A stretch of DNA of 64,000 nucleotides, taken from the sequence record CP054387.1. One strand, 5' to 3'. The position numbers and the translations under genes were made by a program. The stretch's first letter is position 1. Each line of letters begins with the position of its first letter. This DNA is from Escherichia phage CMS-2020a. The notes beneath the pieces were generated by a model. That model searched no databases. It was not told where the DNA came from and saw only the letters and a list, made by a program, of their open reading frames with translations. Below are positions 2,137 to 18,500 of the stretch, piece after piece.

Positions 2137-2143
2137 TTTACTC

Positions 2144-2696: not shown

Positions 2697-2882
2697 TCAC
2701 CAACCGCAAACTCTCTCTCCCATCGTATTGTGAAAAAGGATTTGGCGTTCGGTTTCTTCGGTCATCACATCATTATTGCTGATATAGATAGGCCCAGCTC
2801 CATCGCAGAACAATACGCTGGCGGTTTGTGGTTTAATGACGCACCCACTTATCATACAACTCACGATGAACGGCAGAAGCAT
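2697..2882 (-). CDS. o-spanin (Rz1-like outer-membrane lipoprotein) candidate
   Basis: Internal ATG at 2882..2880 of ORF 2697..2912; MLLPFIVSCMISGC has lipobox ISGC; overlaps the 3' end of the Rz-like ORF in another frame at the end of the lysis cassette. Confidence 0.45.
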   Translation of the reverse strand: MLLPFIVSCMISGCVIKPQTASVLFCDGAGPIYISNNDVMTEETERQILFHNTMGERVCGW

Positions 2883-3084
2883 CTTTCTGACGTATTTTAT
2901 TGCTCGTCTCATTCACCACTTCCACTGTGCTTTGAAGTCGTTTTCTGTCTTCCTGTTTTGCCTTCTCTTCCATTGCTCGTCGCGCCGCATTCCCGCCCAT
3001 CGTGTAAGCGCCGACAAGAACGAAAAGAACGGCAGCCAGCGTAATCAAAGCAACTTTTAGCTTTGTCATCAGGCTGCCTAGCAT
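2833..3084 (-). CDS. i-spanin (Rz-like) candidate
   Basis: 83 aa, N-terminal hydrophobic TM segment (LKVALITLAAVLFVLVGAY) then charged helical region; immediately downstream of the endolysin-like gene; unusually short for Rz. Confidence 0.4.
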   Translation of the reverse strand: MLGSLMTKLKVALITLAAVLFVLVGAYTMGGNAARRAMEEKAKQEDRKRLQSTVEVVNETSNKIRQKDASAVHRELYDKWVRH

Positions 3085-3085
3085 A

Positions 3086-3778
3086 TTAGACCATCCCTTT
3101 CTGGTGTCTTCTTACCTGCGACCAGGCAATGAATCCTGCCACAACAATAGTGGCAATACCGAAGATGATGCGTACTGTATCCCCACTAGAGATATGACCT
3201 TGTGCTTTATCCATAGCAGCGGAAACCTGCGGCATAACATCGGCCAGCTGCGCCAGACCAATACCTGCTGTAACAGTTGCGCCTGCTGTTTCTTTAGTTA
3301 CAGGAACAGCCTTCACGGTTTTCACCGGCTTAACGACTCCAGCTCGACGCAGACCTTCCTCAATAACTTCTGCCGCATACCAGGTGTTCAGCGTTTTTAG
3401 CGGACCTCGCCCATTCTCATGGCGAATGATTGCCTCAACCAAAGGTCGAAGGATGTCGTAATCATGCAGATCGATGATCATGTCTGCGGTTACACCAACG
3501 GCTTTAGACACCTCATTAATGTAGGCGTCAGTATTGTTTTCATTCGGCGGTGCCCAACGTTCAATAACTTCACGAATGGTATCGATACTTGAGCCGTCTT
3601 TTGCGCGACGTTTGTCGTGGTAGGTAATTAGAGTCACCGCCAGCGCACGAATCCCCCAAACAGGGTCTTTAAACGTGCAAAAGCGCGGTTCGTCTGGATT
3701 CGCAACCAGACCTTGCCACGGTGATCCTTTATCAAGATTACCGGGGTTATTATTACGAATGCCTCTCGGAGTCTTCAT
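3086..3778 (-). CDS. lysis-cassette protein, putative peptidoglycan hydrolase (endolysin-like) with C-terminal transmembrane segment
   Basis: ATG at 3778 with AGGAG 8 nt upstream (ORF track starts further upstream at 3805); sits between holin-like and spanin-like genes; C-terminal hydrophobic stretch IIFGIATIVVAGFIAW; catalytic family not identified. Confidence 0.4.
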   Translation of the reverse strand: MKTPRGIRNNNPGNLDKGSPWQGLVANPDEPRFCTFKDPVWGIRALAVTLITYHDKRRAKDGSSIDTIREVIERWAPPNENNTDAYINEVSKAVGVTADMIIDLHDYDILRPLVEAIIRHENGRGPLKTLNTWYAAEVIEEGLRRAGVVKPVKTVKAVPVTKETAGATVTAGIGLAQLADVMPQVSAAMDKAQGHISSGDTVRIIFGIATIVVAGFIAWSQVRRHQKGMV

Positions 3779-3791
3779 CCTTGTTCTCCTG

Positions 3792-4115
3792 TTATTGCAG
3801 TCCATTTTTTACGCCATATGCGGCTAATCCTAAAATTAGTGCGGTTATAATAAACGACGTCACTTTAGAAATAATGCCTCCAAAGAAGCCGCTTGAGATC
3901 GAATCTAACCTATTAAGTAGTTTATCCAGATTGGAATGTTGAATACTGTGTTGAGCCGGAGTCATGTCACCAAAATAGTTTTTCAACTGCTCATGAACCT
4001 CATGAACTATCTCCTCTCTGATTTCTTTTCCTAATTTACCAACAACTTCTCTGGCGACAATTTTAGCTATTCTCTCAACCTGATCATGAGTGACGCCTCC
4101 TACGTCATTAGCCAT
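3792..4115 (-). CDS. holin-like small membrane protein (candidate)
   Basis: 107 aa with a single C-terminal TM (FFGGIISKVTSFIITALILGLAAYGV); first gene of the putative lysis cassette; AT-rich upstream region. Confidence 0.3.
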   Translation of the reverse strand: MANDVGGVTHDQVERIAKIVAREVVGKLGKEIREEIVHEVHEQLKNYFGDMTPAQHSIQHSNLDKLLNRLDSISSGFFGGIISKVTSFIITALILGLAAYGVKNGLQ

Positions 4116-4212: not shown

Positions 4213-4725
4213 TTAACTAATTTTCAAATCTTGTGTAACCCCCGTCCTTTTCATTGCCGTTATAAAGGCCGAACTAGGTGTTCCTTGCCAGTAATAGTGA
4301 AAACCGTTAATAACACTATTGTAAGTAAAAACTTGTGAGACTCCACCAACTGTTACTGTAATATTGCTTGCCCTTCCCCCTGCGATGTATAAACCCCCAG
4401 TGGGCGGTAAACCAGGAACGTAGTGAGCTTGCGTAAGCACGATCCCCACTAAACGACCTAAACCACAGCTCGAAGCACCAGCAATTGTACCTTGGTTCTT
4501 TTCAGCCAATGGCCAATCTGAACCTACAGCCCCCCAGTTTTCGACTTTATCAGGAGGATTCCCTTTATAGTAAGCGGTTGCAATTTTACAGCCCATAGAT
4601 CTTCCCACCATTTGACTCATCATAAAAGGTTTACCCAGTCCTAATTTACTACCTGCGGCGCTCATCCATTGTTCGCCCGTTTCGTTCTTGGCCGAAGAAC
4701 CGACCCATCCCGATGTTACCCCCAT
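4213..4725 (-). CDS. hypothetical Gly-rich protein between tail fibre and lysis genes
   Basis: 170 aa ORF, no recognisable motif; position suggests moron or fibre-associated protein. Confidence 0.4.
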   Translation of the reverse strand: MGVTSGWVGSSAKNETGEQWMSAAGSKLGLGKPFMMSQMVGRSMGCKIATAYYKGNPPDKVENWGAVGSDWPLAEKNQGTIAGASSCGLGRLVGIVLTQAHYVPGLPPTGGLYIAGGRASNITVTVGGVSQVFTYNSVINGFHYYWQGTPSSAFITAMKRTGVTQDLKIS

Positions 4726-4810
4726 ATCATCTCCCCTTCTGAATGCGTGGGGTGAGTATCACCCCCACAATTTAAATTCAGTAGAAACCAGAAACTCCAA
4801 CAGCTGTCGT

Positions 4811-7800
4811 TTACTTCTCCCGAAGTTCTTTAATCTCATGACGAAGTGTTTTAAAGCCCTCGACTAACAATGCAATTATGCCGTTGTAGTTAAGACACAG
4901 ACGTTTTTCACCAGATATAACGTCTGTGTCTTCAGTTACCAGTTCAGACAATGCTTTTTGTGCATCCTGAGCAATTAAACCAACTGACGTTTTCCAACTA
5001 TCATCAGAGAGTTGGATTTCATAAAGATAACCAGTAAGTGCCTCCAAACGATCTAACGCATTATCTAGCTTTACCAGATTACGCTTGTTACGCTTATCTG
5101 AGCGGATCTGAACATCATTAAATGAGCCATTTCCATTTACAGTCAAATTACCTGTTATCGTACCCCCACCGATAGGCAAAGCACCAATTTGAGCGGCACT
5201 TATACTAATATTTTTTGTTCCGTCGAAACTTACTCCATTTATAGTACGTGCTGTTTGTAGCTTAGTTGCTGATGCTGCGTTACCAGATGTATTCTGATTT
5301 CCTGACGTATTCACACCTGGAAGATTAATGTTTGCGCTACCATCAAATGATACTCCACCTATTGTTCTTGATGTTTTTAATTTAGTAGCTGTTGCAGCAT
5401 TACCTGATGTGTTCTGATTTCCAGCTTTGTTAACGCCTGGTAAATCTATATTCGCTGTACCATCAAACGATACCCCCCCTATATTTCTCGCTGTTTTCAG
5501 TTTCGTAGCCGAAACTGCATTTCCATTTGAGGCAAGGGCGCCTATCTCTGAAGCCGTTGGTTTATTTTGAGAACTGTAATTACGACGCCATGTTGGGCTA
5601 TAGTTATCGCCGTTGTATGTATAAATAAACTCACTATTAAGAACAGCACCAGATGCACCTCCAGATGTTGAAGGTGTTGTAATGCGTATAGTGTAATTAC
5701 TTGTACCGGTTGAAAACACCTCAATAACAGAACCAGCAAGAGGTATAACTCCACATCCCGTTGATGCATTTCCTATATAACAGTTACTACCATAAGACCA
5801 GCTACAACGTGTGCTCCACTGAGTTGCATCAAATGCCCCTTGTGAATTTAACCATGCGACAAATTGTGCAGTTGTCCACTCTTGAGTATTCCCCGTAGCA
5901 AGATTAGCAACATATTTTGCTGCACCTAGTTGTTTTGGCGTGATGCTTATATTCTTTGAGCCATCAAAACTGACCCCATTTATTTTTCGTGCCGTTGCAA
6001 GTTTTGTCGCCGTTGCAGCATTACCTGACGTGTTCTGATTTCCAGCTTTATTGACACCAGGTAAGTCAATATTTGCAGTGCCATTAAACGATACCCCACC
6101 TATTGTTCTTGCCGTTTGCAGTCTCGTTGCGCTCCCTGCATTACCTGTTGTACTCTGATTTCCAACCTTGTTAACGCCTGGTAAGTCAATATTTGCAGTG
6201 CCGTCAAATAACATTCCACCAATTGAACGAGGTGTTGCTAACTTAGTGGCAGAGGCAGCGTTTCCACTAGTACTCTGAGTTCCTGTTGAGTTTACACCTG
6301 GTAGATTTATATCTGATGAACCATCAAACGGTACTCCGCCAATTTTTCGTGCTGCTTTTAATTTTGTTGCAGTATCGGAATTTCCGTTAAGTGAGCCTGC
6401 AAGACCATTACTAAATGTTTGCTTTGCACTCCATGTATTGGCTGTACTCAATAAAGGTATTTTATCGCCACTTGTTCCATTTTCCTTCAATCCAAGATAC
6501 TGAATAATCGCCTGTACACTTGCTTTAGAAAGAATATCTCGACCAACAGAAGTTATTGTTGCTAATCCAGCTGTATCATTCCCTGTAAAATAAGGAAGTT
6601 TATTAGCGGCTGTTGTTAGTCCAGCCAGTGCAGTCAGCGTAGCATCAAGAGGTTGTTTTGTGGCCAACTTGTTCGTCATTGTTGTGGCAAAATCGGGATC
6701 ATCACCCAAAGCCCTTGCCAACTCATTAAGAGTATCAAGCGCTTCAGGTGATGATCCTACAAGACCTGAGATCGCTTCTCTTACATAAGCAGTTGTGGCA
6801 ATTTGCGTATTATTAGTGCCTTGAGTCGCCGTTGGTGCCGTTGGTGTGCCAGTAAATGCTGGGCTGTTGATTGCTGCTTTTCTATCAGCAAGATCCTTTA
6901 CACTTTTAACCGCTTTTGTTGTTGCGGCCAATGATTCAGAGGCGTTATTTGTATCGCTACTTAATTGAACCAGCCCTTTTTGTGAAGTTGTCGCGTCATT
7001 TGCAGTATATTTTGATTTAGCAAGATCAAACGCAGCCTTTACTGCTTTTGGTGTTGCTGCAAATTCTTCTGACGAACTGCTCGTCTCACTGCTTAATTTG
7101 ACAATACCCTTCATAGTCAAACTGGCATCATGTAATGATATCGCTGACAAAGCTCTTTCTGCTCTAGTAGCAGCTATCTCTGCACGCTCTGCCGATGCAA
7201 GTGCTGATGTTTGGCTTTGCTTTGCTTCTTCTGCTTTAGCCGCAGATTCAGCTGATTTCGATGATGCGTTACTAGCACTAGTTGAGGCTTCAGCAGACTT
7301 TCGGCTAGCTTCATCCTTCGAAGCTCTAGCAGCAGACGCATAAGTTGAAGCCTGATTAGCGGATGTCTTCGCAGACCTTGCCGACTCTCTAGCCTGATTT
7401 GCAGAAGTTGATGCACTGCCAGCACCAGAAGCAGCATTCATTTCAGATAATTTTGCAGCCTCTTTAGAGACCAACGCAGCATTAGCCGAACTTGTGGCTT
7501 CTGTTGCCTTAGTGGAAGCTGTTGATGCAGAAATTGCAGCTGCGTTCTTCGCCTCTAAAGCACTTGTTTCTGATGCTTTAGCACTTGATGCACTTTTATT
7601 TGCTGCATTTTTAGACGCTGTAGCATCCAACGCACTATTAGATGCCTGAGTAGCCTTACTGCTTGCTAGATTCGCACTCTTCGCCGCAGCCGACGCACTG
7701 GCCGCAGCCTGTTTTGCTTTATCTCCTGCGGAATTAATTGCGTTAGTATTATTTTCATACCATTCTACGTGCTTATTATGCTCCGCGATAATCTTAGAAA

Positions 7801-8182
7801 GAGGTTTTACATTAACATTAGTGCCATCTTCTCGCTCAAGAGTAACTTCATCTACGGCAGTTAACCAATTTCGAACTGTTTTTGCATCACCAGACATTCG
7901 TGATAAAAGAGCCGTAAATCTCGCACTAAACTGTGTCAAATCTCCTTCGTAGGTAGTGATGATCCTACATGGTATATCACTTTGCGTTTCACCAGTATAG
8001 TTTTCAACCAACGTTAAGGTTGTGTCATTTGTTACGCTTTTAATTTCATACAATTTATTATCAGGTGCGACGACAATCATGCCAGGCAACACACCATTGG
8101 CCGTAACGTTCCATGCTGTCCCAGCACCAACCAGAGTATTGCTGCCTTGTGTAAATGTGATAGTACCTTCCCTGTACCACAT
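4811..8182 (-). CDS. tail fibre protein with tandem fibre repeats and C-terminal S74-type intramolecular chaperone domain
   Basis: 1123 aa; ~7 tandem ~38-aa repeats (GGVSFDGTANIDLPGVNKAGNQNTSGNAATATKL...) encoded by ~115 bp DNA repeats at roughly 5.2-6.5 kb; Ala/Ser-rich coiled region; C-terminal LDNALDRLEALTGYLYEIQLSDDSWKTSVGLIAQDAQKALSELV resembles endosialidase/T5-fibre autoproteolytic chaperone. Confidence 0.85.
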   Translation of the reverse strand: MWYREGTITFTQGSNTLVGAGTAWNVTANGVLPGMIVVAPDNKLYEIKSVTNDTTLTLVENYTGETQSDIPCRIITTYEGDLTQFSARFTALLSRMSGDAKTVRNWLTAVDEVTLEREDGTNVNVKPLSKIIAEHNKHVEWYENNTNAINSAGDKAKQAAASASAAAKSANLASSKATQASNSALDATASKNAANKSASSAKASETSALEAKNAAAISASTASTKATEATSSANAALVSKEAAKLSEMNAASGAGSASTSANQARESARSAKTSANQASTYASAARASKDEASRKSAEASTSASNASSKSAESAAKAEEAKQSQTSALASAERAEIAATRAERALSAISLHDASLTMKGIVKLSSETSSSSEEFAATPKAVKAAFDLAKSKYTANDATTSQKGLVQLSSDTNNASESLAATTKAVKSVKDLADRKAAINSPAFTGTPTAPTATQGTNNTQIATTAYVREAISGLVGSSPEALDTLNELARALGDDPDFATTMTNKLATKQPLDATLTALAGLTTAANKLPYFTGNDTAGLATITSVGRDILSKASVQAIIQYLGLKENGTSGDKIPLLSTANTWSAKQTFSNGLAGSLNGNSDTATKLKAARKIGGVPFDGSSDINLPGVNSTGTQSTSGNAASATKLATPRSIGGMLFDGTANIDLPGVNKVGNQSTTGNAGSATRLQTARTIGGVSFNGTANIDLPGVNKAGNQNTSGNAATATKLATARKINGVSFDGSKNISITPKQLGAAKYVANLATGNTQEWTTAQFVAWLNSQGAFDATQWSTRCSWSYGSNCYIGNASTGCGVIPLAGSVIEVFSTGTSNYTIRITTPSTSGGASGAVLNSEFIYTYNGDNYSPTWRRNYSSQNKPTASEIGALASNGNAVSATKLKTARNIGGVSFDGTANIDLPGVNKAGNQNTSGNAATATKLKTSRTIGGVSFDGSANINLPGVNTSGNQNTSGNAASATKLQTARTINGVSFDGTKNISISAAQIGALPIGGGTITGNLTVNGNGSFNDVQIRSDKRNKRNLVKLDNALDRLEALTGYLYEIQLSDDSWKTSVGLIAQDAQKALSELVTEDTDVISGEKRLCLNYNGIIALLVEGFKTLRHEIKELREK

Positions 8183-8276
8183 GTTGAATCTGCTCCTTTA
8201 ATCAGGTGGGCTATCCTTGCCCACCATTAAGTATGTAACTACCTATTATTATCGATAAAAATATTTTTTTCCATAA

Positions 8277-11200
8277 TCAAAGTCGACCAATTCTTACCCT
8301 GAGTACATTATTGTCGTCGTAAACGTCGATTCTCTGCCCATTGATAACTAATCTCCCATTTCCTCCACTGTTACCGTTAATCTCAAGCGTTCCGTTTTTG
8401 CCAAATCTCCATCCGGCTCGTCCTCTTACGAAGTTTGTTGATTGTAAGTCACCTACCTTTGCGTTTGTGATAGTGCCATCTTTGATATAAGCACCGTTCA
8501 TATACGCAACGCTGTTTTCGATAACAAATGGCGTTGTGATCTTCCCATTAACATTGTTGACCAAACCAAATCGATCTGCCCGCACCAAAAACTGAGAAAG
8601 CCCCGTTGTATCAATACCCAGCGCAATGCCCGCTACATACTTCTGCCCACCACTCGTTGAAGTTTCCATCTTCAATGTGTACGAGGTTGATACTTTTCTA
8701 TTAGCGTCAGCTATAGCAGAAGCCTGCTGCTGAATAACGGCAACATTTCCATCTACAGACGCTTTCAGTGTATCAATTCGTTTTCCTAGAGCGTTGTCTG
8801 CACTTGTTCTGGCCTTTGACTCTGACGTAATCGCTGCATTGATATAATTTGTTGTTTGCGACTGGAGATTAGTTACCCTTGTCGAAAGCGCTGCATCAGC
8901 ATCAGTTCTGGCTTTCGTCTCTTCTGCTACAGCAGCCTTTATATCTTTACCTGTTTGTGTCTTTAGTGAGTTAATCTGCGACGTCAATGCGGTATCAGCG
9001 GCAGCTCTTGCTTGAGTTTCAACCGCAACAGCTGCACTTATATCCTTAGCAGTTTTTGTTTTAAAACTTGCCAAGTCTTTTGCAATGGCAGAATCCTGAC
9101 TTGTACGAGATGTCGATTCTCGCTCTATCGAGGACTGAAGATTATTAGCCCTCGTAGTAAGAGAAGAAATTTGTCTGGATAATGCATCGTTAGCGTCAGT
9201 TCTTGCTTTGGTTTCAACTGCTACCGCCGCTGCAATGTCTTTACCTGTTTTTGTTTTTAAACTACTAACTTCTCTTGATAGTGCACTATCGCCTGATGCT
9301 CTGGCTTCTCTTTCCTCATTAATAGCAGCTGATATGTCATCATCTACTTTTGCCTGCAATTGATTAATTTGTGTGGATAACGCTGAATCGCCGCTAACTC
9401 GCGCTTGTTGCTCACTTTTAATAGCAGCAGATATATCGTTATTAACTTTTGTTTGAAGTTGAGTTATTTGCCTTGATAATGCTTCATCTTGCGTTGCTCT
9501 TGTTTGTTGCTCTTCTCTAATAGCGGTTGAAATATCAGTATTTACTTTAGACTCCAGTTGTGTGATCTGCTTTGAAAGAGTCTCATTGGCCGATGCTCTT
9601 GCAGATTGTTCGGTCCTTATTGCGGCACTGATATCACCTTCAAATTTACTCTGTAATTGTGTCACACGATTGGCTAACGCATTATCACCATCAGTTCTGG
9701 CTGTCGCTTCTTCGAGAATAGATGCTCGAATGTTGTCACCAATCTCGGCTCGTATCTCTTCAACCTTAGACGCCATTGCTGACACATCATCGACAAGAAT
9801 CTTTTGAGTCGTGGCAATTTTCGCGTTATTTACCAGCTGCCTGTGCTGATCTTCGTCCTGCCGCAACGCAAGATCGATATTTGTCTTAGAAATGGCTTCA
9901 AGATTAGTTGTGATTTCTGAACTTACTCTTCCTACCTCAGCAACCGTTCTCCGCATTTCTTCTACAGCCGCAACACTTTCATCAACCGATGATCTCATCG
10001 TTTCTATCTTTTTAGCATTCGCTAGATCTGCTTGTGCACGAACTTTACGCTCTTCGGCAATTAAAGATGATGCATTTTCAAGTGCCGCATTTGCTGCTTC
10101 TACGACACCAGCAACAGAATCACCTTGTTTTGATACTGTATTACGTAGTTCAATAAGTGCTGCATTTGAATTTTCAACTTGTCGTAATGCATCATCTACT
10201 TTTTCCCGAGTGCTAGAAACTTCCGTTCTAAGCTCGCTTTGCGCATTCTCCAGTGTCTCGCTGCGTTCAGTAAACGATGTTTTGAACTCATCGATACTAC
10301 TCGTTAGCTCCTTATTTAATGCGGAAATTTCACCTTCCAGAGATTCGACACTCTGATCGATATGATTATTGATTTCATCAACAGCTTGTTGAGAAGCCTT
10401 ACTGTCAATTTCCTCATTTAAAGCCTGGCCAAGTTCTGACGAGGTAATTTTATTGGCTAAAAATGAAAGAACATCTCGCGTTGTGGCCTCTGTACCAAGA
10501 TTTGAGTTTGGGCGACTCAACATGCCACGCTTATTTGCTGATCTAACCCAGTAATACCAAGTTTCACTATCCCCAAGACCAGCATGTGTAAAGGTGGTGC
10601 TTGCAGACTCTGCGATCAGTTTCGCCGTATCCAGATTGTTGGTCTGGGATGCGTAAACATTAATGTGATCAAGGTCTACCGAATCTGGATTGACCCAATT
10701 CAGTATCACATTACGATAGTCCCCAACTGCCGTTAATGACGTTGGTGCATCCGGCGGTGTCATTGTGCCCAGCACCTGATAAACGGTACTGATAATCTCT
10801 GTTTTTTTACCGTTGAATGAAACCGCATACAGTTGGAAGTCGTAGCGTCCATTCTCCGCGACATTAACGATTTCGTATTGCTCTTCGGTTACACGTGCCG
10901 ATTGCCAGTTCGATACATTGTTTTCATCAGAACGTCGCCAACTGATCCAATACTCTGGAGATTTCCCTTCCCATGTTGCAGTCAGTTTTACTGACAGGTT
11001 GCCAGGGCTTGAGAGATAAGTCCCTTCAGTGATTTGCAAATTAGATGGCTTGGAGTAAGTCGGGTCCAATACCGTCGTATTCTGCGGGATAAGCGTTGCA
11101 CCATTGTCGATTGCCTCATATTTAGACGGATTGTTCTCAACAGCGGTGATGTCAAAGCTACCCGACGTTTCCCCCTGAGCGATGTTAACGATGCGAACGC

Positions 11201-12989
11201 GCATAGGTTCGAGATCTGGTTCTGTGATTGTCCATACACCGTTCAAAACAGGCGTTTCCGCTGACGACAGAGCTTTTGAAAACGTAACCTTTGTTATGTT
11301 TTCGCCAGTTTCAAGAACATCGCGTTCAACGATTTTGCCTTCCTGATTCAATATCCGAATAAAGCTGCCGCTTTTAGCTAACGACACAGGCGCATCGAGA
11401 GTGATGCTGTTTTTGGTAAACTCCACAATTCGACCGGAGTTACGTTTACCTGCACGATATTTGTTCTGAATCAGAACGGTTTCACCGGGCATCAGAAATG
11501 AGGCGTCTAAACCGGCAGTAAATGTAATTACATCCGACTCCATTCTGGCGGTATACAAAAGCCACAAACCAACTCGGTGAGCTTGGCCTCGACTTGTACA
11601 TCCAAATGCTACGACTTCTGTTTTACGCTCACCATAACGGCGCATTGCGTCCTGATCTTCAACGTACTCAATGTTTTGCTTATAACCGTCCTCCTTGTTG
11701 TTGTAGGTCACGAGCGCAACGGATGGGCGATCTTTACGCGCAGAACCTTTATAGGTAAACAATCCATCTTTGACGTTCGAGTTGGTAAACATCATTACTG
11801 GATCTGATGGGCTATCCTGCATGATGTTAACCATGCCACCAGCCCAAAACACCATGCCGCGGAATGCACCGGCAATATCCTGAATTAGTCGGTATGCATC
11901 CTGTCTACTGGTGATCTGCGTATTGATTGCAAAGCGTTTCTCTTTACCACCAAAGCCATCATCAACCTCTTCGTCACAATATCGACCGATCTGGTACAGT
12001 TGGCCGAGATCAATCATAGATTCCGACACATACTGACCAAGCCCATATCGAGAATTGGTAAGCAAGTCGAAGAGAATCCACGCAGGGTTTGAAGATGACA
12101 ACAGCTTAAAAGAGCCATCCCATACGCCATCATAAGTGTTACTAGCCTCGTTGTAGTTTGATGGTACGCGAATTTTTAATCCCCGCACCAGATAGGAACG
12201 AGAAGGCATAGAGCCGCCAAACTGCTCAGAATTAACCTTCAGTCCCACCAACACAGAGTTTGGGTAGTTCATCGGTGTATCAACGATCTCACCGATTGAG
12301 TCCACCCATGTATCGTTATAAAGATACTGACCGCTGTTATCATCAGTAATACGAACTACTCGAACACTGTATGCCCGACCTGGCTTGGGTAACTTCAGCT
12401 CATAACTACGATAATAAGCACCGGTTTTCTTCGCTGTTAACTTAATACCAACGTTTTTTTCACCTTCTGCGACCACATCTACAAATGTTGAATCTCCATT
12501 TGAGATCTGGAACTTATACTCAACGGTAGTGCCGTTTGTATCACCCGTTTTTTGGTCTATTCTTCGCAGAGAAGGGAACTTCATGATGACTCGAACACGA
12601 TCGGCCTCATCGTTATCTATTGAAACCGTCACATAATGCGATTTCTTTAGTTGGATATTGATCGATTTAGGTGTTTCGACGAAATCAAAGCCAGACATTG
12701 GTGTCTGGTCTTGCGAGCCGTCTCGAAAATCCCATGAAATTCCGCTAAAGTTTGAAGAGCCGTCTTCATTTACTATGGGCAAATCGTCGACAAAAATAGA
12801 TCTTGCGCCATTTACCAAGCCGCCAATTACGCCTTCTCCAAGAAGATCGAGAATAGAGGCCATAGCACGAGAATTTACGGTATCGTCTGCTTCAACTGGT
12901 GTGCGACTAGAGCTTTTGCTACTTTTTTTGCCACCAGAACCTGCAATTAATAGAGGTAACTTTTTCTTCTTGAACTGTTCCATGCCCAA
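8277..12989 (-). CDS. central tail fibre / host specificity protein J-like, with long coiled-coil repeat insertion
   Basis: 1570 aa; N-terminal half alignable by eye to lambda J (e.g. NYPNSVLVGLKVNSEQFGG...VPSNYN...YDGVWDGSFK vs lambda CYPNTALVGVQVDSEQFGS...VPSNYN...YSGIWDGTFK); at least 8 tandem ~33-aa heptad-like repeats (DISAAIRTEQSARASANETLSKQITQLESKVNT...) about 8.8-9.85 kb. Confidence 0.9.
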   Translation of the reverse strand: MGMEQFKKKKLPLLIAGSGGKKSSKSSSRTPVEADDTVNSRAMASILDLLGEGVIGGLVNGARSIFVDDLPIVNEDGSSNFSGISWDFRDGSQDQTPMSGFDFVETPKSINIQLKKSHYVTVSIDNDEADRVRVIMKFPSLRRIDQKTGDTNGTTVEYKFQISNGDSTFVDVVAEGEKNVGIKLTAKKTGAYYRSYELKLPKPGRAYSVRVVRITDDNSGQYLYNDTWVDSIGEIVDTPMNYPNSVLVGLKVNSEQFGGSMPSRSYLVRGLKIRVPSNYNEASNTYDGVWDGSFKLLSSSNPAWILFDLLTNSRYGLGQYVSESMIDLGQLYQIGRYCDEEVDDGFGGKEKRFAINTQITSRQDAYRLIQDIAGAFRGMVFWAGGMVNIMQDSPSDPVMMFTNSNVKDGLFTYKGSARKDRPSVALVTYNNKEDGYKQNIEYVEDQDAMRRYGERKTEVVAFGCTSRGQAHRVGLWLLYTARMESDVITFTAGLDASFLMPGETVLIQNKYRAGKRNSGRIVEFTKNSITLDAPVSLAKSGSFIRILNQEGKIVERDVLETGENITKVTFSKALSSAETPVLNGVWTITEPDLEPMRVRIVNIAQGETSGSFDITAVENNPSKYEAIDNGATLIPQNTTVLDPTYSKPSNLQITEGTYLSSPGNLSVKLTATWEGKSPEYWISWRRSDENNVSNWQSARVTEEQYEIVNVAENGRYDFQLYAVSFNGKKTEIISTVYQVLGTMTPPDAPTSLTAVGDYRNVILNWVNPDSVDLDHINVYASQTNNLDTAKLIAESASTTFTHAGLGDSETWYYWVRSANKRGMLSRPNSNLGTEATTRDVLSFLANKITSSELGQALNEEIDSKASQQAVDEINNHIDQSVESLEGEISALNKELTSSIDEFKTSFTERSETLENAQSELRTEVSSTREKVDDALRQVENSNAALIELRNTVSKQGDSVAGVVEAANAALENASSLIAEERKVRAQADLANAKKIETMRSSVDESVAAVEEMRRTVAEVGRVSSEITTNLEAISKTNIDLALRQDEDQHRQLVNNAKIATTQKILVDDVSAMASKVEEIRAEIGDNIRASILEEATARTDGDNALANRVTQLQSKFEGDISAAIRTEQSARASANETLSKQITQLESKVNTDISTAIREEQQTRATQDEALSRQITQLQTKVNNDISAAIKSEQQARVSGDSALSTQINQLQAKVDDDISAAINEEREARASGDSALSREVSSLKTKTGKDIAAAVAVETKARTDANDALSRQISSLTTRANNLQSSIERESTSRTSQDSAIAKDLASFKTKTAKDISAAVAVETQARAAADTALTSQINSLKTQTGKDIKAAVAEETKARTDADAALSTRVTNLQSQTTNYINAAITSESKARTSADNALGKRIDTLKASVDGNVAVIQQQASAIADANRKVSTSYTLKMETSTSGGQKYVAGIALGIDTTGLSQFLVRADRFGLVNNVNGKITTPFVIENSVAYMNGAYIKDGTITNAKVGDLQSTNFVRGRAGWRFGKNGTLEINGNSGGNGRLVINGQRIDVYDDNNVLRVRIGRL

Positions 12990-12999
12990 AAATCCTTGA

Positions 13000-13590
13000 T
13001 TACATAAGCTGGTCGATGGTGATAGAAGAACTCACGACCTGTGAGCCAACCAAAATTTCCTCACCATAGATAAGCTGTACAGGGTTGCCCTGGTTTGTTG
13101 TATTTTGAGGCCCATCAAAGTAAAAAGAGTTCGAATTATCAGCCTGTCTCACACTTTCGTTAGTGGCTTGTGGAGATATGATTTGCGCTATACCGCCCAT
13201 CATCAGTGACAAACCGAGAGGCGCAAGAGCGGGCACCCATATCGAGGCAACCATTAACACTGCTCCAACAACCGTCTGAAACCACCCAAAAGCAGATCCA
13301 CCGCTTCCTCGCGGAACAGGGGTAATGCGGATTTTGGCAATGTTGTCAGACTGCCCCATCATCTGATATTCACTCTCGTCCACAGACCACTTGTGGCCCT
13401 GTTTATTGGTGATCTGGATGTGGTATCTGTCATAGGTTTTGATATTGCGCTTCATCCATGCTTTAAAACCAGGCTTATTGGCCTCAATTAAATCCAGAGC
13501 CTGTTTTGTATTGCGCACCTTTAGATGCCAGTGGCGGCCAAAATGTTTGGCCATAGGGCCGCCAAGCTGCACATGAACTAACTCAGACAC
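13000..13590 (-). CDS. tail assembly protein I-like
   Basis: 196 aa; C-terminal YGEEILVGSQVVSSSITIDQ resembles lambda I YGEMRVGSRVVSQEIS; position between K-like and J-like genes. Confidence 0.8.
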   Translation of the reverse strand: MSELVHVQLGGPMAKHFGRHWHLKVRNTKQALDLIEANKPGFKAWMKRNIKTYDRYHIQITNKQGHKWSVDESEYQMMGQSDNIAKIRITPVPRGSGGSAFGWFQTVVGAVLMVASIWVPALAPLGLSLMMGGIAQIISPQATNESVRQADNSNSFYFDGPQNTTNQGNPVQLIYGEEILVGSQVVSSSITIDQLM

Positions 13591-14402
13591 GCCTCATCTC
13601 CCTTGAGCAAGTCTCTGTGACGCAAGTGATGCGTCGTATGTTTCTGATACATCCCGCCGTAATAAGCACGACAACTAAGGCGGTCGATCTGGTGATGAAG
13701 AATCATTCCATCGCCGATATAAACCGCGCAGTGGTCAGGCATTTTTCCGTATTGGATAAAGAAGACGTCCCCACGTTGAGGTTCTGTTCCGGGCGCAAGC
13801 CGTACCAATCCTTCGTTTCGGTAGTTCTGGTCGAGAATGTCGTTATCGCCGGTGTACCACGATGGAATATGCAGGTGTGCGTTCGGGTTTAGTTCGACGT
13901 TAAACTCACGCTTCAAATAGTCCCGACACAACATCCAGCAATCGAATACGCCAAATACATACGGTCTACCCAGGTATGGCATTTCGAAACCATCAGGTGT
14001 GATCACATTCATCTCGCTAAAATGGAAAGGGGCATCTCCCTCAACATTCTTGCGAATAGCCAGAATCATCCACGGAACTTCCGTCGCTTCGCAGCCTGCA
14101 CGATCGGCATCAGATGCTTCTGCTGATTCATCAGTATGTGAATGCCAGATTGCGATAACATCACCCGCATCCTCAGCCGCCATAATGTCGTCAACGTGCA
14201 TTACAAAAGTGTTCTGCGGGTTCTCCGAAACATTCCGCGCTTCCATAAAGCGATATTTGTCGCCATTAGTTCTAACCAGAAAGCCACACGCTTCATTAGG
14301 GTAGCGATTTATGGCGCAGAGATAGATTTGCTGCATAACGTCAGAGCCAAGCTCAGGGATTGCTTTATTACCCATACCGCGTAGCTCCAATAAATCCGCC
14401 AA
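13578..14402 (-). CDS. tail assembly protein K-like (JAB/MPN + NlpC/P60)
   Basis: 274 aa; JAMM motif HSHTDESAEASDAD (HxHx7Sx2D); downstream Cys and His consistent with NlpC/P60 (FDCWMLC ... DHCAVYIG). Confidence 0.8.
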   Translation of the reverse strand: MADLLELRGMGNKAIPELGSDVMQQIYLCAINRYPNEACGFLVRTNGDKYRFMEARNVSENPQNTFVMHVDDIMAAEDAGDVIAIWHSHTDESAEASDADRAGCEATEVPWMILAIRKNVEGDAPFHFSEMNVITPDGFEMPYLGRPYVFGVFDCWMLCRDYLKREFNVELNPNAHLHIPSWYTGDNDILDQNYRNEGLVRLAPGTEPQRGDVFFIQYGKMPDHCAVYIGDGMILHHQIDRLSCRAYYGGMYQKHTTHHLRHRDLLKGDEACLS

Positions 14403-15066
14403 AATGGATCACACCGTCGGCAAAATAATTCCGACGCGCATTACAGGCGTCATAACGTTTTGTGCAGTAGTCCGCACCAGACATAGACGTCTGCTGGTTA
14501 TTTTTGTCGAAATATGGACCGGTATAGCCGCATTCTGGCCCTCGATATTTCCACGGGCAGGTGTTTTTAATGATCTGACGATACGGCAGTTGCACCCCCA
14601 TCAAATCGAACACACTGGACAATTCAAACTCGACAACCTGATGAGTTTCGAGAGTTTTCTGTTCGATAAACCACATTTCATCGGGGAAATGTTGGTTTGG
14701 ATCTGCTGTTGGGTTGCCGTCTTTAAAATTAACGGCATCGAGGAAGCGAGCCAGCGTCATCTTGCGAATAATGCGGCAGCCAACAAGATCGTCGTTTGCC
14801 TGAACTTCCGCAGAGACGGTTCCGGCAAAGTTCGATACCTGAATTTTTGGACGTGGCAACGTTCCCTGGCCCGTTTTGTCAAAACCTGATGCTTTGATTG
14901 GCCACGGCTCGTATGTCACTCCTTGCCAGACGACCGGTTGCATCAGTTCGTTTGTTCCGGCGTGGAAGAATAGCTTCCCCCCTGAAGTTGTATTCGACAT
15001 ATCCAGTACGAACAACTCAATGAGTGCAGAGGGAGATAAGCTCTGAATATCAGCTTTAATTCCCAT
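14368..15066 (-). CDS. minor tail protein L-like
   Basis: Start moved to ATG at 15066 (AAGGA 8 nt upstream); MGIKADIQSLSPSALIELFVLDM...VVWQGVTYEPWPIKASGF and C-terminal Cys cluster CPWKYRGPECGY...C...C parallel lambda L. Confidence 0.85.
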   Translation of the reverse strand: MGIKADIQSLSPSALIELFVLDMSNTTSGGKLFFHAGTNELMQPVVWQGVTYEPWPIKASGFDKTGQGTLPRPKIQVSNFAGTVSAEVQANDDLVGCRIIRKMTLARFLDAVNFKDGNPTADPNQHFPDEMWFIEQKTLETHQVVEFELSSVFDLMGVQLPYRQIIKNTCPWKYRGPECGYTGPYFDKNNQQTSMSGADYCTKRYDACNARRNYFADGVIHFGGFIGATRYG

Positions 15067-15148
15067 TGTTTCATCCTTGAAATAAGTAGGCGCTGACATC
15101 CTGTCAGCGCCACAATAATAGTAAATTAGCACTTACTTATCCAGATGC

Positions 15149-15484
15149 TTAAACCTCAAATACTTGTCTGAATGTAGCAGTTAAGACACAGTACCCCTGA
15201 TATCGCTTGACCGTATGACTGTCACATACAACTACAATCTGCTTGCCTCTTGGATTAACCCAATAGAACGATTCAACGCCTGATCGCTCAGTCAGGAAGT
15301 CATCGATTGCATTAATTTCGTTGTATGATCTGGTAAAGGTTAACGACCATTCTTCTTTAATACGATTAAGACCTTGAGCCTGTCGCTGCTCGTAGTCATC
15401 ACCAAAATTAAGTACCGTTACATTCGGTTTTACGCTTTTTTCAGATTCGTAATCTGGATACCAATTAAACGTTTGTCTTTCCAT
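15149..15484 (-). CDS. minor tail protein M-like
   Basis: 111 aa, size and position between tape measure and L, lambda M-like. Confidence 0.75.
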   Translation of the reverse strand: MERQTFNWYPDYESEKSVKPNVTVLNFGDDYEQRQAQGLNRIKEEWSLTFTRSYNEINAIDDFLTERSGVESFYWVNPRGKQIVVVCDSHTVKRYQGYCVLTATFRQVFEV

Positions 15485-15526
15485 CTCACATCCTTGTGAG
15501 ACTACCCCGGTCGGGGCAGTCGATAG

Positions 15527-18500
15527 TTAGTTACGTTGAGTGTTTGGGTTGAGTGATCCGCCAGGGCGTTTCTCTTGAGCGATAGTCTCAAGCGCGATTG
15601 CTTTCATCCGTTGAGCGGCATTGTTCCATATGCTTTCTGTATCGCCGGATTCAGTTGTGCTACCGTCACTATGGACGTTGATCTCAATTGATACCGGAGA
15701 AAGAACATTTCCTCCTCCACTCATACCATCGGTACTGAGCGTTACAGGGATTGTTCGACCATCAGGCAATGGAACATACGCCTCATTCATATCGCCTTCC
15801 CCAAACAACGCCAATTGAGGTGAGTTGGCGATACCGCCTTTTTGGTATGCCCGGAGCGGGATCACGCCGTCTTTTCCGAATATTCCTCCATTTGCAAACT
15901 TCGGGATTGCAGGAATGCCTTTAGTTCCGTCAGCCACACTGCTGGTTGCGGTTTTAGCAGAGCTTGATGTCACGCTGTCGAAACCACCGCCAGCCCAAGC
16001 TGAAACAAGACCAGATGCAACCGTTGCTCCAAAACTCAACCACTTATTACCAGAGCCGGAAGCATTAGCTCCAAGCATTGCAAACGCGGCAGACAGCGCG
16101 CCGGTAACAGAGCTGAGGTTCTGCATCGAGAAGATGGAGTCCTTCACGGCTTTTGTCTCGGCATCTTTGGCTTCAGTGCTATCAAATAGCCCTGATACCC
16201 AGCTACCAATCGCATTTGTTGCAGTGCCAATTGCGCTGGTGGTCTGCTGTGTTGTTTGCCCCAATCCAGTTACCGAACTGGACGTCTCCTTCGTGGCTTC
16301 TCCTACAGACTTGTCGCCGTTAACAGTGTTGCCCATTCGTACCCCTTGATTGGCAACGGCGGAAGCAACCCCGGTCAGCAAATTACCACTCTGTGAACTA
16401 CCAGCTGCGGTGGTTCCCATCCCCAACATGTTCATTAGAGGCAGCGTGATCTGCGACTTCACGACCATATTGGTGATATCTTTCAAAATAGACTGAGATA
16501 GGCTGGAGAAACTCATCTTCCCGTTAATAACGAAATCAGTCAGGACATCAGTTAAGCCACTAAACAAATCAGTCCAGGTGCTTTCGATCTGCTCTGCCAG
16601 GTTTTCGTATTCCAGTGCCAACTTCTGCGTCGCAGTCCCCGTCTCTTTAATAAGCGCGGTATTGCCAGCAGCAATCAGTTGATTGATTTTCTTTGTATAA
16701 AGCGCCACAACTTTAGGATCAGACGCCTTATCACGAAGTTCTATCAACGCTTTGAGATTGCGGTTGTAGGTGTCTTCGAAATCAGCAACTTTCTCTTCAC
16801 GAGACGGCGTATAGCCAGCACTAATAATGGAATCCGACTCCGGTGCCCAGGTGGAGATCATCTGCTCAACATTGCGGCGATTAAACATCTCGCGATATTC
16901 AGGTGTCGCATTTTTGAGGTCTTCAAGACGTTTTTTCGCCTTGTCGATCATCTCTTGAGTGATGAACTCGTTAGGAACCGCATTAGCCAAATCTGTCAGC
17001 GATTTCGTTGTATCGCGAAGAGACTGATCAAACGATACCGTAGCCTTAGAGCTTTCACCCATTTGCCCCATAAGCTGATCGGCTTTGTCCAGAGCCTTCT
17101 GGTATCCGGCTGCCAGTTTCTGTTGCGCTGCCTGTTCTTTCTTGGCCGCACGCTGCGAGGCATTAGCTGATCGTTGGGCTGCTTTTTCGGCGGCTGCTGC
17201 ATCCTGTTCACGAGCTTTAGTCAGTGCAGCAATGGCTGCGGCACGCTCTTCATCGCTCATTTTCTCCAGAGAGCTGGCACTGGATGCTTTCTGCAAATTA
17301 AGCTGCGTCTTGAGTTGTTTAGGCCCAATAATCGGCTTACCTTCGAAGTCCATCATCGGAGTGCCGTCAGGCAAAGTACGCTGATAAGTCGCAGAATCCA
17401 TCTGGTTTCGCATATATTGCGCCAACGCCTTCTGGGCAGCTTTATCAGTTGTACCTAACCCAAGAACAGTCCCCTGGTTTGACATTACGCCCTTACCAGT
17501 TTTGGCAGCGTTATCTCTCTCGAACTCTGCCTGAGTCAGTTCCTGAGCGACGACTTCCAAATTCTCCTGATAACCACGAATACTTCCTTGCAGTTTCTTG
17601 ATCTGCTCGGTGTTTCCTTCCTTTTTCGCTTTTTCAAGCTGATCATTAAGAGTGGCTATTTGCCCCTCGACAGCATTCTTACGAGAAGAAAGTGAATCAA
17701 CCAGTTTTTGCGCAGGCTCCAGATAGCTTTTGTTTACCGTTTCACGTAACGGTGCCAATAGCTTGTTCTTTTCGTCATCTGAAAGTGAACCGTCATCATT
17801 GATTTTCTGGATCTTATCCAGAGCCTCCTGCCGGGCTTTCACGAATGTTGCCGCAAAGTCTCTATTCTCTTCCCGTATTTTCTCTATCTGTGATTCTGCC
17901 GCATCTTTTGCAAGACGTTTGGCTACAGCAATGTCTCCGCGTTCAATTGCCCCAGTAGTTTTATCGCGTTTCTTACGAAGGTCATTTAGCTCATTTTCTA
18001 TACGCTTACGTTCATCCTGATTAATCTTTACTGTAGTTCCGGCCATACCCGGCCCATAAACCACCTTTTCGCCAGATTTTAACTCTTGTTCCTTTTGCGT
18101 GATTTGTTGCTCAAGACGCGCTTTATACTCCGCCATCTGTGCACGTTTGGCCGCCGTCATCGCCTCTGGTATTTTCCTAATCTCGTCAACGACCTTTGAA
18201 GTTTCGCTGCGGAGCATGGTCATGTACGTGATTAGGCCAGCAACAGCTACAGTGGCAACTGTAAATGCTGCCCCTATAGGATTTGCTGCAATGAACGCCG
18301 TTAATCCAGCAAAAGCGCCTTTAAGCCCCGTAATCGCCCCACGGATGGCGAAAATAAGAGAGGGGATCGGAGCCAGCCCCATACGTGCCGCACGATTGAA
18401 TCGAGTTACTGCTGTAGCGCCGAGGTTAAATGGAGTCTGTATGGCGGTCGCCATCGTGGCAAAGGTGCTAACCATCTGGCTGCCTGCGCCAACTACCCCC

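What the first reader, a model, noticed from the sequence alone, without database searches (positions are those of the whole stretch)
8277..12989. J-like tail tip protein carrying a ~300-aa tandem coiled-coil repeat insertion
Seen in sequence: the N-terminal ~1000 aa track lambda J, followed by at least eight ~33-aa repeats with a heptad-like pattern and then a distinct C-terminal domain (total 1570 aa versus ~1130 for lambda J). Inference: an extended fibre shaft, possibly a recombination-prone region that changes reach or receptor specificity.
Basis: partly seen in the sequence, partly recalled or inferred. Interest (0 to 1): 0.45.

Follow-up and report, generated by a model that had tools for sequence, protein, structure and literature searches.

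The report
Phage tail-tip fibre with variable-length shaft
This gene encodes the central tail fibre of a plasmid-borne E. coli phage; its long helical shaft is built from eleven 33-residue units, a design that is ordinary for this family, although the number of units changes between close relatives.

Summary
The feature is real but ordinary. The ORF lies on the minus strand (8277-12983, 1568 aa). It is 100% identical at DNA level to an annotated "phage tail tip fiber protein" on an SSU5-type phage-plasmid of E. coli O104:H4.

Residues 18-860 align with lambda J. A proline-free helical region of about 600 aa follows. It ends in eleven 33-aa units (aa 1071-1432), and then comes the Phage_Tail_Tip domain, which lambda J also has. 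The lambda receptor-binding domain is absent.

The units follow an 11-residue (hendecad) pattern, not heptads. AlphaFold2 models five of them as one continuous helix.

The array is typical of this group. SSU5-like relatives carry 5-11 units, and the unit occurs in 645 protein clusters, with up to about 25 copies per protein. Phage T1 gp33 and the F-type pyocin central fibres share the architecture.

The useful new point is copy-number change. Indels between near-identical relatives are exact multiples of one unit. Phage PhiR41_1 differs from this gene by a single 99-bp deletion at an 11-bp direct repeat.

[quoted passage not shown] That mechanism is untested here.

The parts
8277..12983 (-). 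Complete CDS of the J-like central tail fibre. It is 1568 aa from the ATG at 12983, with an in-frame TTG at 12989. The DNA is identical to the CDS annotated as WP_014962315.1.
   Evidence: PHROG 31 'central tail fiber J'
11124..12983 (-). N-terminal hub region, aa 1-620. It contains FNIII-A_GpJ (aa 102-236) and Phage-tail_3 (aa 358-521).
   Evidence: Pfam; 31% identity to lambda J over aa 18-860; PDB sequence matches to lambda J, T1 gp33 and the F2-pyocin fibre
10494..11123 (-). Fibronectin-III / Ig-like region, aa 621-830.
   Evidence: weak fn3 match at aa 645-728; aligns with the Ig_J domains of lambda J
9774..10472 (-). Proximal, irregular, proline-free helical segment, aa 838-1070. It holds the 7-, 11- and 18-aa indels seen among relatives, and the module boundary near aa 883.
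8688..9773 (-). Array of eleven 33-aa units (unit 7 has 32 aa), aa 1071-1432. Consensus: SxxIxxLxxKxxxDIxAAIxxExxARxxADxAL.
   Evidence: AlphaFold2 models units 6-10 as a continuous helix
9330..9428 (-). The 99 bp (gene nt 3556-3654, aa 1186-1218, spanning units 4 and 5) that are absent from phage PhiR41_1. The stretch is flanked by the 11-bp direct repeat GCTGCTATTAA.
8334..8735 (-). Phage_Tail_Tip domain (PF09327, formerly DUF1983), aa 1417-1550. This is the beta-rich fibre tip shared with lambda J residues 845-972.
8280..8465 (-). Short C-terminal end, aa 1507-1568 (...GWRFGKNGTLEING...VLRVRIGRL). T1 gp33 and PDB chain 9ze4_N end in the same way. It takes the place of lambda's receptor-binding domain.
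13000..15484 (-). Upstream tail-tip genes in lambda order: gpM-like (15149-15484), gpL-like (14368-15132), gpK-like NlpC/JAB (13578-14402) and gpI-like (13000-13590).
4213..8182 (-). Downstream side tail fibre (4811-8182, 1123 aa) and a gp38-like adhesin (4213-4725). These are the probable primary adsorption apparatus.
   Evidence: the SSU5 gp22 adhesin binds LPS core (PMC12312913)

Best explanation
This is the central tail fibre (lambda J / TipJ homologue) of an SSU5-type siphophage that is maintained as a plasmid.

Shown here:
- The protein has a J-type hub and FN3 domains.
- These are followed by a proline-free alpha-helical shaft of about 570-600 residues.
- The distal 362 residues of the shaft are eleven 33-residue units, each made of three hendecads. 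The core positions are I4, L7, V11, I15, A18/I19, A29 and L33. An E22-R26-D30 set of charged residues lies in the core register.
- The shaft is followed by the conserved beta-rich Phage_Tail_Tip domain and a short C-terminal end. There is no lambda-type receptor-binding domain.

Inferred from the solved homologues (F-type pyocin central fibres, T1 gp33, lambda J):
- Three chains form a parallel coiled coil that holds the tip away from the tail cone.
- Each unit adds about 5 nm. The array would be about 54 nm long, and the whole shaft up to about 85 nm.

Shown by comparison:
- The number of units changes in register, through deletion or duplication between short direct repeats in neighbouring units.
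- Close relatives therefore range from 5 to 11 units, roughly a 30-nm range.

Inferred and untested:
- The side fibre with its gp38-like adhesin makes first contact with LPS core, as in SSU5.
- The J tip then engages a second receptor.
For: Identity and context:
- The DNA is 100% identical to NZ_CP022085.2, where the gene is annotated as a tail tip fiber protein. The upstream order is TMP-M-L-K-I and a side fibre lies downstream.
- The Pfam, PHROG and PDB matches are all to J-type proteins.

Shaft:
- The extra sequence relative to lambda J is one discrete block.
- There is no proline in aa 826-1484.
- The hydrophobic period is 3.65 residues.
- Indels of 7, 11, 18, 33 and 66 aa all preserve the helical register.
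- AlphaFold2 gives a single helix for aa 1237-1402 with pLDDT 92-98.
- HMMER aligns aa 1264-1540 with the F2-pyocin fibre. Its shaft is a solved three-stranded coiled coil.
- T1 gp33 aligns through to the last residue.

Copy-number change:
- Relatives carry 5-11 units.
- Junction units are hybrids of two neighbouring units.
- PhiR41_1 is at least 98.3% identical in every 300-nt window, apart from one 99-bp deletion at GCTGCTATTAA.

Tip:
- PF09327 is matched.
- Foldseek ranks lambda gpJ (8xcj) and the SU10 tip fibre (7z4b) first.
Against: - No trimer could be modelled. Both AlphaFold2 runs were monomers with shallow alignments, and the tip is modelled at low confidence (pLDDT 40-75).
- Whether the shaft is straight and uninterrupted is unknown. 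Glycines at aa 852, 884, 954, 959 and 1018 could be kinks or could mark an inserted domain, as in the F2 pyocin. The 85-nm figure is therefore an upper bound.
- The direction of each copy-number event (loss or gain) is not determined.
- No functional consequence of unit number has been shown.
- The receptor of the J tip is unknown.
Confidence: 0.8

Rival explanations
1. The array is chiefly a metastable spring. After the tip binds the cell, the coiled coil refolds into a triangular beta-prism, as shown for 163 residues of the F7-pyocin central fibre. This would shorten the fibre, open the tail tip and release the tape measure protein. Unit number would then set the stored energy and the stroke, not only the reach.
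For: - The published motif SxSxxMxxLxS (PMC12874032) occurs 22 times in the 362-aa array, against 4.8 +/- 2.1 in shuffles. It falls at fixed phases, 32 and 17, of nearly every unit.
- In 540 unique units from 150 diverse proteins, positions 1, 9, 17, 25, 27 and 32 are small residues in at least 92% of cases. These positions would be exposed in a hendecad coil. Glu22 and Arg26 are at 99% and Asp30 at 92%, matching the Arg +/-4 salt-bridge rule of that paper.
- The shaft and tip are homologous to an F-type pyocin fibre.
- In the aa 1367-1568 AlphaFold2 model, the last unit and the start of the tip are modelled as roughly 10-residue beta-strands, like the proposed 'seed' strands.
Against: - The motif test uses my own residue classes.
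- The units are homologous to each other, so the 22 hits are not independent.
- The 540 units were collected with a profile built from this protein, which biases them towards its consensus.
- AlphaFold2 gave only the helical state for units 6-10.
- A switch of 360-570 residues would be two to more than three times the one observed in the F7 pyocin.
- The same paper notes that lambda and T5 do not use this mechanism.
Confidence: 0.35
2. The shaft serves mainly as a docking rail for the side fibres, as in the F2 pyocin, where three side-fibre trimers bind the alpha-helical shaft at a glycine kink. Unit number would then set where the side fibres sit relative to the tip.
For: - The F2-pyocin structure shows this arrangement (PMC13455828).
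- A large side-fibre gene lies directly downstream.
- The proximal helical segment contains glycines.
Against: - Lambda-type side fibres attach to a collar on the tail, not to J (PMC12617516).
- The side fibre here is of the lambda Stf / T4 gp37 type, with Phage_fiber_2 repeats.
- No docking motif was identified.
Confidence: 0.2
3. Copy-number variation is neutral drift. Any shaft above a minimal length works, and unit gain and loss merely reflects slippage at short direct repeats.
For: - Counts from 5 to 11 all occur in otherwise similar elements.
- A 10-unit phage (PhiR41_1) is recorded with E. coli K-12 as host.
- The junctions are simple microhomologies.
Against: - All indels seen preserve the helical register (7, 11, 18, 32/33, 66 aa). 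Selection therefore at least removes out-of-register changes.
- Two size classes dominate, 6 and 11 units.
Confidence: 0.3
4. One reading: an unusual, lineage-specific insertion into an otherwise lambda-like J protein that carries its own novel C-terminal receptor-binding domain.
For: Relative to lambda J alone, the extra sequence is a single block.
Against: - The same module sits at the same position in SSU5, Cyrano, PhiR41_1, mEp010, KS9, T1 and the F-pyocins.
- The unit is found in 645 clusters at 50% identity, with up to about 25 copies per protein.
- The C-terminal domain is PF09327, which lambda J also has.
Confidence: 0.03

Closest known systems
Lambda gpJ (central tail fibre; PDB 8IYK, 8XCJ, 9E7M)
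   Same: - The hub, FNIII-A, Phage-tail_3 and Ig/FN3 domains match, with 31% identity over about 840 aa.
- The Phage_Tail_Tip domain is shared.
- The gene order M-L-K-I-J is the same.
   Different: - Lambda has only a very short helical link, about 10-40 aa, between FN3 and the tip domain (my estimate). Here the link is about 600 aa.
- Lambda ends in the LamB-binding domain PF12421, which is absent here.
Phage T1 gp33 (PDB 9L9P chain S; PMC11945409)
   Same: - The match runs end to end: hub, then 33-aa units of the same family (...EALSREIDQLKAQIGDDIQASL...), then the tip domain.
- The last residues are the same (...LRVQIGRL).
- The published AlphaFold3 model shows a long alpha/beta-helix fibre of about 37 nm.
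   Different: - T1 gp33 has 1172 aa and a much shorter shaft.
- Its C-terminal 350 aa were not resolved experimentally.
F-type pyocin central fibre proteins (F2 PyoF10, PDB 25VF; F7 CFP, PMC12874032)
   Same: - The architecture is the same: J-type hub, three-stranded alpha-helical shaft, beta-prism C-terminus, and no canonical receptor-binding domain.
- HMMER aligns aa 18-780 and aa 1264-1540.
- The fold-switch motif is present.
   Different: - These are tailocins, not phages.
- The switching coil is 163 residues, against a 362-aa array within a helix of about 600 aa here.
- Neither side-fibre docking nor fold switching has been shown for this protein.
SSU5 gp20 and the J proteins of E. coli SSU5-like phage-plasmids (Cyrano, PhiR41_1, CMS-2020a)
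   Same: - They are orthologues at the same locus, 71-99% identical.
- They share the same unit family and the same tip.
   Different: - The unit number differs: 6 in SSU5, 10 in PhiR41_1 and 11 in the 1575/1574-aa E. coli forms.
- Klebsiella relatives keep only the first ~945 aa and continue into a different protein of 4045 aa.
Stalks of trimeric autotransporter adhesins (YadA, BadA, UspA). This is an analogy only, from my own knowledge.
   Same: They are trimeric coiled-coil stalks with non-heptad periodicity, and their repeat number varies between strains and sets the reach.
   Different: They are unrelated in sequence, and they are bacterial surface proteins rather than virion proteins.

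Membership tests
Lambda J / TipJ central tail fibre | N-terminal hub homologous to gpJ (FNIII-A_GpJ, Phage-tail_3) | tested here: met
   Pfam E 2e-29 and 1e-34. BLASTP against lambda J gives 2e-114. PHROG 31 is matched. PDB 8iyk_J matches at 1.8e-122.
Lambda J / TipJ central tail fibre | Position after the tape measure, gpM, gpL, gpK and gpI homologues | tested here: met
   Phage_min_tail, Phage_tail_L, NlpC/JAB and the tail assembly protein lie directly upstream on the same strand.
Lambda J / TipJ central tail fibre | Phage_Tail_Tip (PF09327) fibre domain | tested here: met
   E 8e-41 at aa 1417-1550. The region aligns with lambda J 824-931.
Lambda J in the strict sense (LamB-binding type) | C-terminal receptor-binding domain Ig_GpJ_C (PF12421) | tested here: not met
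   It is present in lambda J (E 4.5e-74) and absent here. The protein ends 18 aa after PF09327.
Shaft-type central fibres (T1 gp33 / F-type pyocin CFP) | Long helical coiled-coil segment between the FN3 domains and the beta-prism tip | tested here: met
   No proline at aa 826-1484. Hydrophobic period 3.65. AlphaFold2 helix with pLDDT 92-98. Sequence homology to 25vf_A and 9l9p_S. The trimeric state itself was not tested.
Shaft-type central fibres (T1 gp33 / F-type pyocin CFP) | No canonical receptor-binding domain after the beta-prism | tested here: met
   PMC13455828
Fold-switching central fibres (F7 pyocin type) | SxSxxMxxLxS motif repeated along the coil | tested here: inconclusive
   There are 22 matches against 4.8 +/- 2.1 in shuffles, at fixed phases, and the small positions are conserved. 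However, the residue classes are my own rendering of the motif, and the units are not independent of each other.
Fold-switching central fibres (F7 pyocin type) | Experimentally or computationally observed beta-prism state of the coil region | not testable with these tools
   Only monomer AlphaFold2 was available. Units 6-10 came out helical. The last unit came out as beta-strands at modest confidence.
Classical heptad coiled coil | Hydrophobic period of 3.5 residues | tested here: not met
   The peak is at 3.65 and the power at 3.50 is about 0. Each unit has nine core positions per 33 residues.
DNA tandem repeat / contingency locus | Near-identical head-to-tail DNA copies | tested here: not met
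   Tandem Repeats Finder gives no rows. Unit DNA identity is 50% on average and 69% at most. The longest exact direct repeat is 14 bp.

The most novel reading that the evidence does not exclude
The 33-residue array is a very large, modular fold-switching spring: 360 or more residues, against the 163 shown for the F7 pyocin. In-register gain and loss of units in natural populations (5 to 11 units) would then tune both the reach of the fibre and the energy or stroke released on coiled-coil-to-beta-prism refolding. That would give a natural dosage series for testing how non-contractile tails power envelope penetration.
Probability: 0.25. Interest if true: 0.6.

Novelty: new member of a known kind. 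Interest (0 to 1): 0.25.

Why it matters
As it stands, the finding is a correctly annotated structural gene of a common E. coli phage-plasmid. Its long helical shaft is the rule, not the exception, among J-type fibres outside lambda.

Two points have modest value.

First, SSU5-like elements offer near-isogenic natural variants that differ by whole 33-residue units. The window carries 11 units. PhiR41_1 carries 10 and is recorded with E. coli K-12 as host. Other relatives carry 5-9. This is a ready-made series for asking whether central-fibre length matters for adsorption through O-antigen or capsule.

Second, the array carries the motif recently tied to the coiled-coil-to-beta-prism switch of F-type pyocins. 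These easily grown coliphages could therefore be used to test whether that mechanism operates in real phages, and how it scales with length.

Tried and rejected
- Tandem Repeats Finder on 8000-13200 at minimum score 30 found nothing. The repeat exists only at protein level.
- A homologue search with the last 169 aa returned only 19 proteins, mostly fragments. It gave a shallow alignment and a mediocre model with pLDDT 64.
- Foldseek on that monomer model gave only two significant hits (lambda gpJ and SU10), with low TM-scores. This is expected for one chain of an intertwined trimer. It confirms kinship and nothing finer.
- A full-text search for PDB codes was mostly noise. It did surface the Ur-lambda paper.
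- A search for literature on length variation of central fibres found nothing. A search for 'PhiR41' found nothing useful.
- I tried to place three non-overlapping 11-residue strands of the published motif within each 33-aa unit by hand and could not do so consistently. Two instances per unit are clean, at phases 32 and 17, and a third at phase 25 overlaps both. I therefore make no claim about the strand layout.
- Rejected readings:
  - A heptad coiled coil.
  - A DNA-level recombination hot spot based on long identical repeats.
  - A unique insertion.
  - A novel C-terminal domain.
  - An artefactual or fused ORF, because full-length orthologues exist in isolated phages.

Full report
**Location and identity**

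The ORF reported at 8277-12989 is on the minus strand. The plus-strand frame is full of stops. From the TTG it has 1570 codons. From the ATG at 12983 it encodes 1568 aa, and RefSeq annotates that start.

Window 8000-20200 is 100% identical to plasmid unnamed1 (109,945 bp) of E. coli O104:H4 FDAARGOS_348. There the gene is WP_014962315.1, 'phage tail tip fiber protein'. All 245 places matched in complete E. coli genomes are on plasmids. The nearest phages are PhiR41_1, CMS-2020a, Cyrano and Salmonella phage SSU5. The element is therefore an SSU5-type phage-plasmid.

Upstream on the same strand lie the tape measure protein and homologues of gpM, gpL, gpK and gpI. Downstream lie a 1123-aa side fibre and a gp38-like adhesin.

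**Domain layout**

Pfam finds the following:
- FNIII-A_GpJ at aa 102-236
- Phage-tail_3 at aa 358-521
- a weak fn3 match at aa 645-728
- Phage_Tail_Tip (PF09327) at aa 1417-1550

BLASTP against lambda J gives two colinear pieces. Residues 18-860 align with lambda 2-836 at 31% identity. Residues 1396-1501 align with lambda 824-931.

The extra sequence is therefore one discrete block of about 535 aa, placed between the last FN3/Ig domain and the tip domain. Lambda's own C-terminal LamB-binding domain (PF12421, aa 1001-1132) has no counterpart here. The protein stops 18 aa after PF09327.

About 860 aa track lambda J, not about 1000. The 'distinct C-terminal domain' is in fact the domain shared with lambda J, and what is missing is the receptor-binding domain.

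**The repeats**

Autocorrelation of aa 1100-1420 peaks at lag 33, with weaker peaks at 66 and 99. In aa 1071-1432 the lag-33 identity is 0.40. The best lag in 2000 shuffles gives 0.134 +/- 0.008, so z is about 35.

Laid out in register, there are eleven units, and unit 7 has 32 aa. The consensus is SxxIxxLxxKxxxDIxAAIxxExxARxxADxAL.

The hydrophobic period is 3.65 residues, which corresponds to nine core positions per 33 residues. There is essentially no power at 3.5. Each unit is thus three hendecads rather than heptads. The core positions are 4/7/(8)/11, 15/18/19/(22) and (26)/29/(30)/33, with Glu22, Arg26 and Asp30 at positions in the core register.

There is no proline between aa 825 and aa 1485, against 32 prolines in the first 830 aa. 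AlphaFold2 (monomer, 17-sequence alignment) models aa 1237-1402 as one uninterrupted helix with pLDDT 92-98.

At DNA level the repeat cannot be seen. Tandem Repeats Finder reports nothing. Units are 50% identical on average and 69% at most. The longest exact direct repeat is 14 bp.

**Is the array unusual?**

It is not. Evidence within the SSU5-like group:
- Among the 120 nearest protein clusters, every member has the array. The counts are 5 units (1 cluster), 6 (96), 7 (16), 8 (1), 9 (2), 10 (1) and 11 (3).
- The two full-length 11-unit clusters are large, with 1980 and 1290 member sequences.
- About half of the 226 E. coli genomes with this gene match it over at least 80% of its length. Many of these have spans of 4728 or 4725 bp.
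- SSU5 itself has six units.

Evidence beyond the group:
- A profile of the unit finds 645 clusters at 50% identity, among 1.84 billion representatives, at E <= 0.001. Some proteins have 23-26 matched stretches.
- Among the best 150 of these, the array is usually followed by the same tip domain. This holds both in J-type proteins and in fibre proteins without a J hub.
- tblastn with the array alone finds 57 phage records from at least 17 organism groups, including T1 and its relatives.
- The lambdoid coliphage mEp010 has a 1707-aa J that is colinear with this protein and carries its own roughly 33-aa repeats.

Solved or modelled homologues show what the module is:
- T1 gp33 (9L9P) aligns through to its last residues. 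Its distal 350 aa were too flexible to resolve, and AlphaFold3 models them as a fibre of about 37 nm.
- The F2-pyocin central fibre (25VF) has a three-stranded alpha-helical shaft, a predicted beta-prism C-terminus and no canonical receptor-binding domain.

**Copy-number change**

Pairwise global alignments of close relatives show the following indels:

| Pair | Identity outside the gaps | Indel |
|---|---|---|
| query / P0002 | 96.9% | 33 aa |
| P0003 / P0005 | 99.7% | 66 aa |
| P0006 / P0007 | 94.3% | 33 aa |
| P0007 / P0008 | 88.3% | 32 aa (array) and 7 aa (near aa 884) |
| P0008 / P0018 | 92.4% | 33 aa (array) and 7 aa (near aa 889) |
| P0018 / P0119 | 99.3% | 33 aa |

In addition, indels of 11 and 18 aa occur near aa 886-900. 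All indels of about 33 aa or multiples lie inside the array, and all of them preserve a 7- or 11-residue register. The shorter proteins carry hybrid units, made of the head of one unit joined to the tail of the next.

The clearest case is phage PhiR41_1, whose recorded host is E. coli K-12 MG1655. Its J gene is at least 98.3% identical to the window in every 300-nt window. The only indel is an exact 99-bp deletion (gene nt 3556-3654). Its two ends share the 11-bp direct repeat GCTGCTATTAA. P0002 has lost one unit at a different junction, so it records a separate event.

Unit number therefore changes recurrently, by recombination or slippage at short microhomologies. It does not depend on long identical repeats. 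Whether a given event was a loss or a gain is not known.

**Specificity modules**

Many E. coli plasmids match only nt 1-2650 of the gene at megablast level. Klebsiella relatives share only aa 1 to about 945 and continue into a 4045-aa protein. Some fragments share the tip domain but then continue into a longer, lambda-like C-terminus (P0280 and P0284).

Receptor specificity is thus more likely exchanged as whole shaft-plus-tip or tip modules than altered by unit number.

In SSU5 the LPS-core receptor is bound by the gp22 adhesin of the side fibre (PMC12312913). The window encodes a 31%-identical homologue at 4213-4725. The receptor of the J tip is unknown.

**How it most likely works**

Shown: the architecture, the helical and hendecad nature of the array, its homology to solved coiled-coil shafts, and the in-register copy-number change.

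Inferred:
- Three chains form a parallel coiled coil.
- At about 1.5 A per residue, each unit adds about 5 nm. The array would be about 54 nm, and the full proline-free stretch at most about 85 nm.
- Relatives with 5-11 units would differ by about 30 nm in reach.

What happens after binding is open. In lambda the central fibre bends aside (PMC12617516). In the F7 pyocin a 163-residue coiled coil refolds into a beta-prism and opens the tip. The authors predict this for 21 of 24 siphophage homologues, and they define the motif SxSxxMxxLxS (PMC12874032).

That motif, with residue classes as I rendered them, occurs 22 times in this array, against 4.8 +/- 2.1 in shuffles. It falls at the same two phases in almost every unit. 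In 540 distinct units from 150 diverse proteins, six positions that would be exposed in the coil are small residues in at least 92% of cases. Glu22 and Arg26 are at 99% and Asp30 at 92%. AlphaFold2 models the last unit and the start of the tip as short beta-strands at modest confidence.

I regard the fold switch as a serious possibility, about one in three, and not as shown. The units are not independent, the family alignment is biased by the query profile, and no trimer or alternative-state modelling was possible.

**Verdict**

This is a real, well-delimited, already-annotated J-type central tail fibre with a long hendecad coiled-coil shaft, which is common in the family. The copy-number polymorphism, with a near-isogenic 10-unit versus 11-unit pair, is a tidy observation. 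I did not find it described in the literature, although the two literature searches that touched on it were brief. The link to the pyocin fold switch makes these coliphages a convenient test system. Overall interest is low to moderate.

Noticed in passing
window 4213-4725 (-) and 4811-8182 (-): The 1123-aa side fibre ends in a Peptidase_S74 intramolecular chaperone domain. It is nevertheless followed by a gene with a T-even gp38 adhesin N-terminal domain, which is 31% identical to the SSU5 gp22 adhesin that binds LPS core. Two different tip-maturation or adhesin systems thus appear in one fibre locus.
   Followed up: partly
J gene nt ~2650 (aa ~883), window ~10330; aa 884-900: About half of the E. 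coli plasmids match only the first 2650 nt at megablast level, so a module boundary lies at the start of the helical shaft. Indels of 7, 11 and 18 aa cluster in the same place. These are heptad and hendecad multiples.
   Followed up: partly
L004 (Klebsiella phage pJN2-26) 6001 onwards; record 55798-67935: The J-like gene of Klebsiella SSU5-like phages is annotated as one ORF of 12,138 nt (4045 aa). It shares only about the first 945 aa with this protein and almost lacks the 33-aa unit.
   Followed up: no
P0280 and P0284 (fragments): These proteins share the same tip domain. After '...W.INK.G' they continue into a longer C-terminus resembling the beta-helix plus receptor-binding domain of lambda J and mEp010 J. 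The short end and the lambda-type end appear to be interchangeable cassettes.
   Followed up: partly
E. coli plasmids NZ_CP053233.1 (H68), NZ_CP020118.1 (H95), NZ_CP031136.1 (H45) and NZ_CP195468.1 (H54): IS3-, IS1- and IS1A-family transposases are annotated under the matched J or tail regions. Some of these phage-plasmids therefore probably have inactivated tails.
   Followed up: no
window 1867-2665 (+): A DUF1778 / GNAT acetyltransferase pair, which is a toxin-antitoxin type, sits between the lysis genes and an AAA ATPase gene. It is on the opposite strand to the tail genes (RefSeq annotation).
   Followed up: no
window 2833-3805 (-): The 239-aa product that RefSeq calls 'membrane protein' matches an endolysin PHROG (phrog_873, E 9e-89). 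The 83-aa ORF after it matches an Rz-like spanin. The lysis cassette therefore lies just downstream of the fibre genes.
   Followed up: no
L003 (SSU5) 15482-15715: SSU5 annotates a Cor superinfection-exclusion protein shortly after its fibre genes. From my own knowledge, Cor is usually linked to FhuA-dependent phages, which hints at the receptor of the J tip. I did not look for a homologue in the window.
   Followed up: no
window 15527-20110 (-): The tape measure protein has 1527 aa. At about 1.5 A per residue this implies a tail of roughly 230 nm, in keeping with the very long central and side fibres.
   Followed up: no
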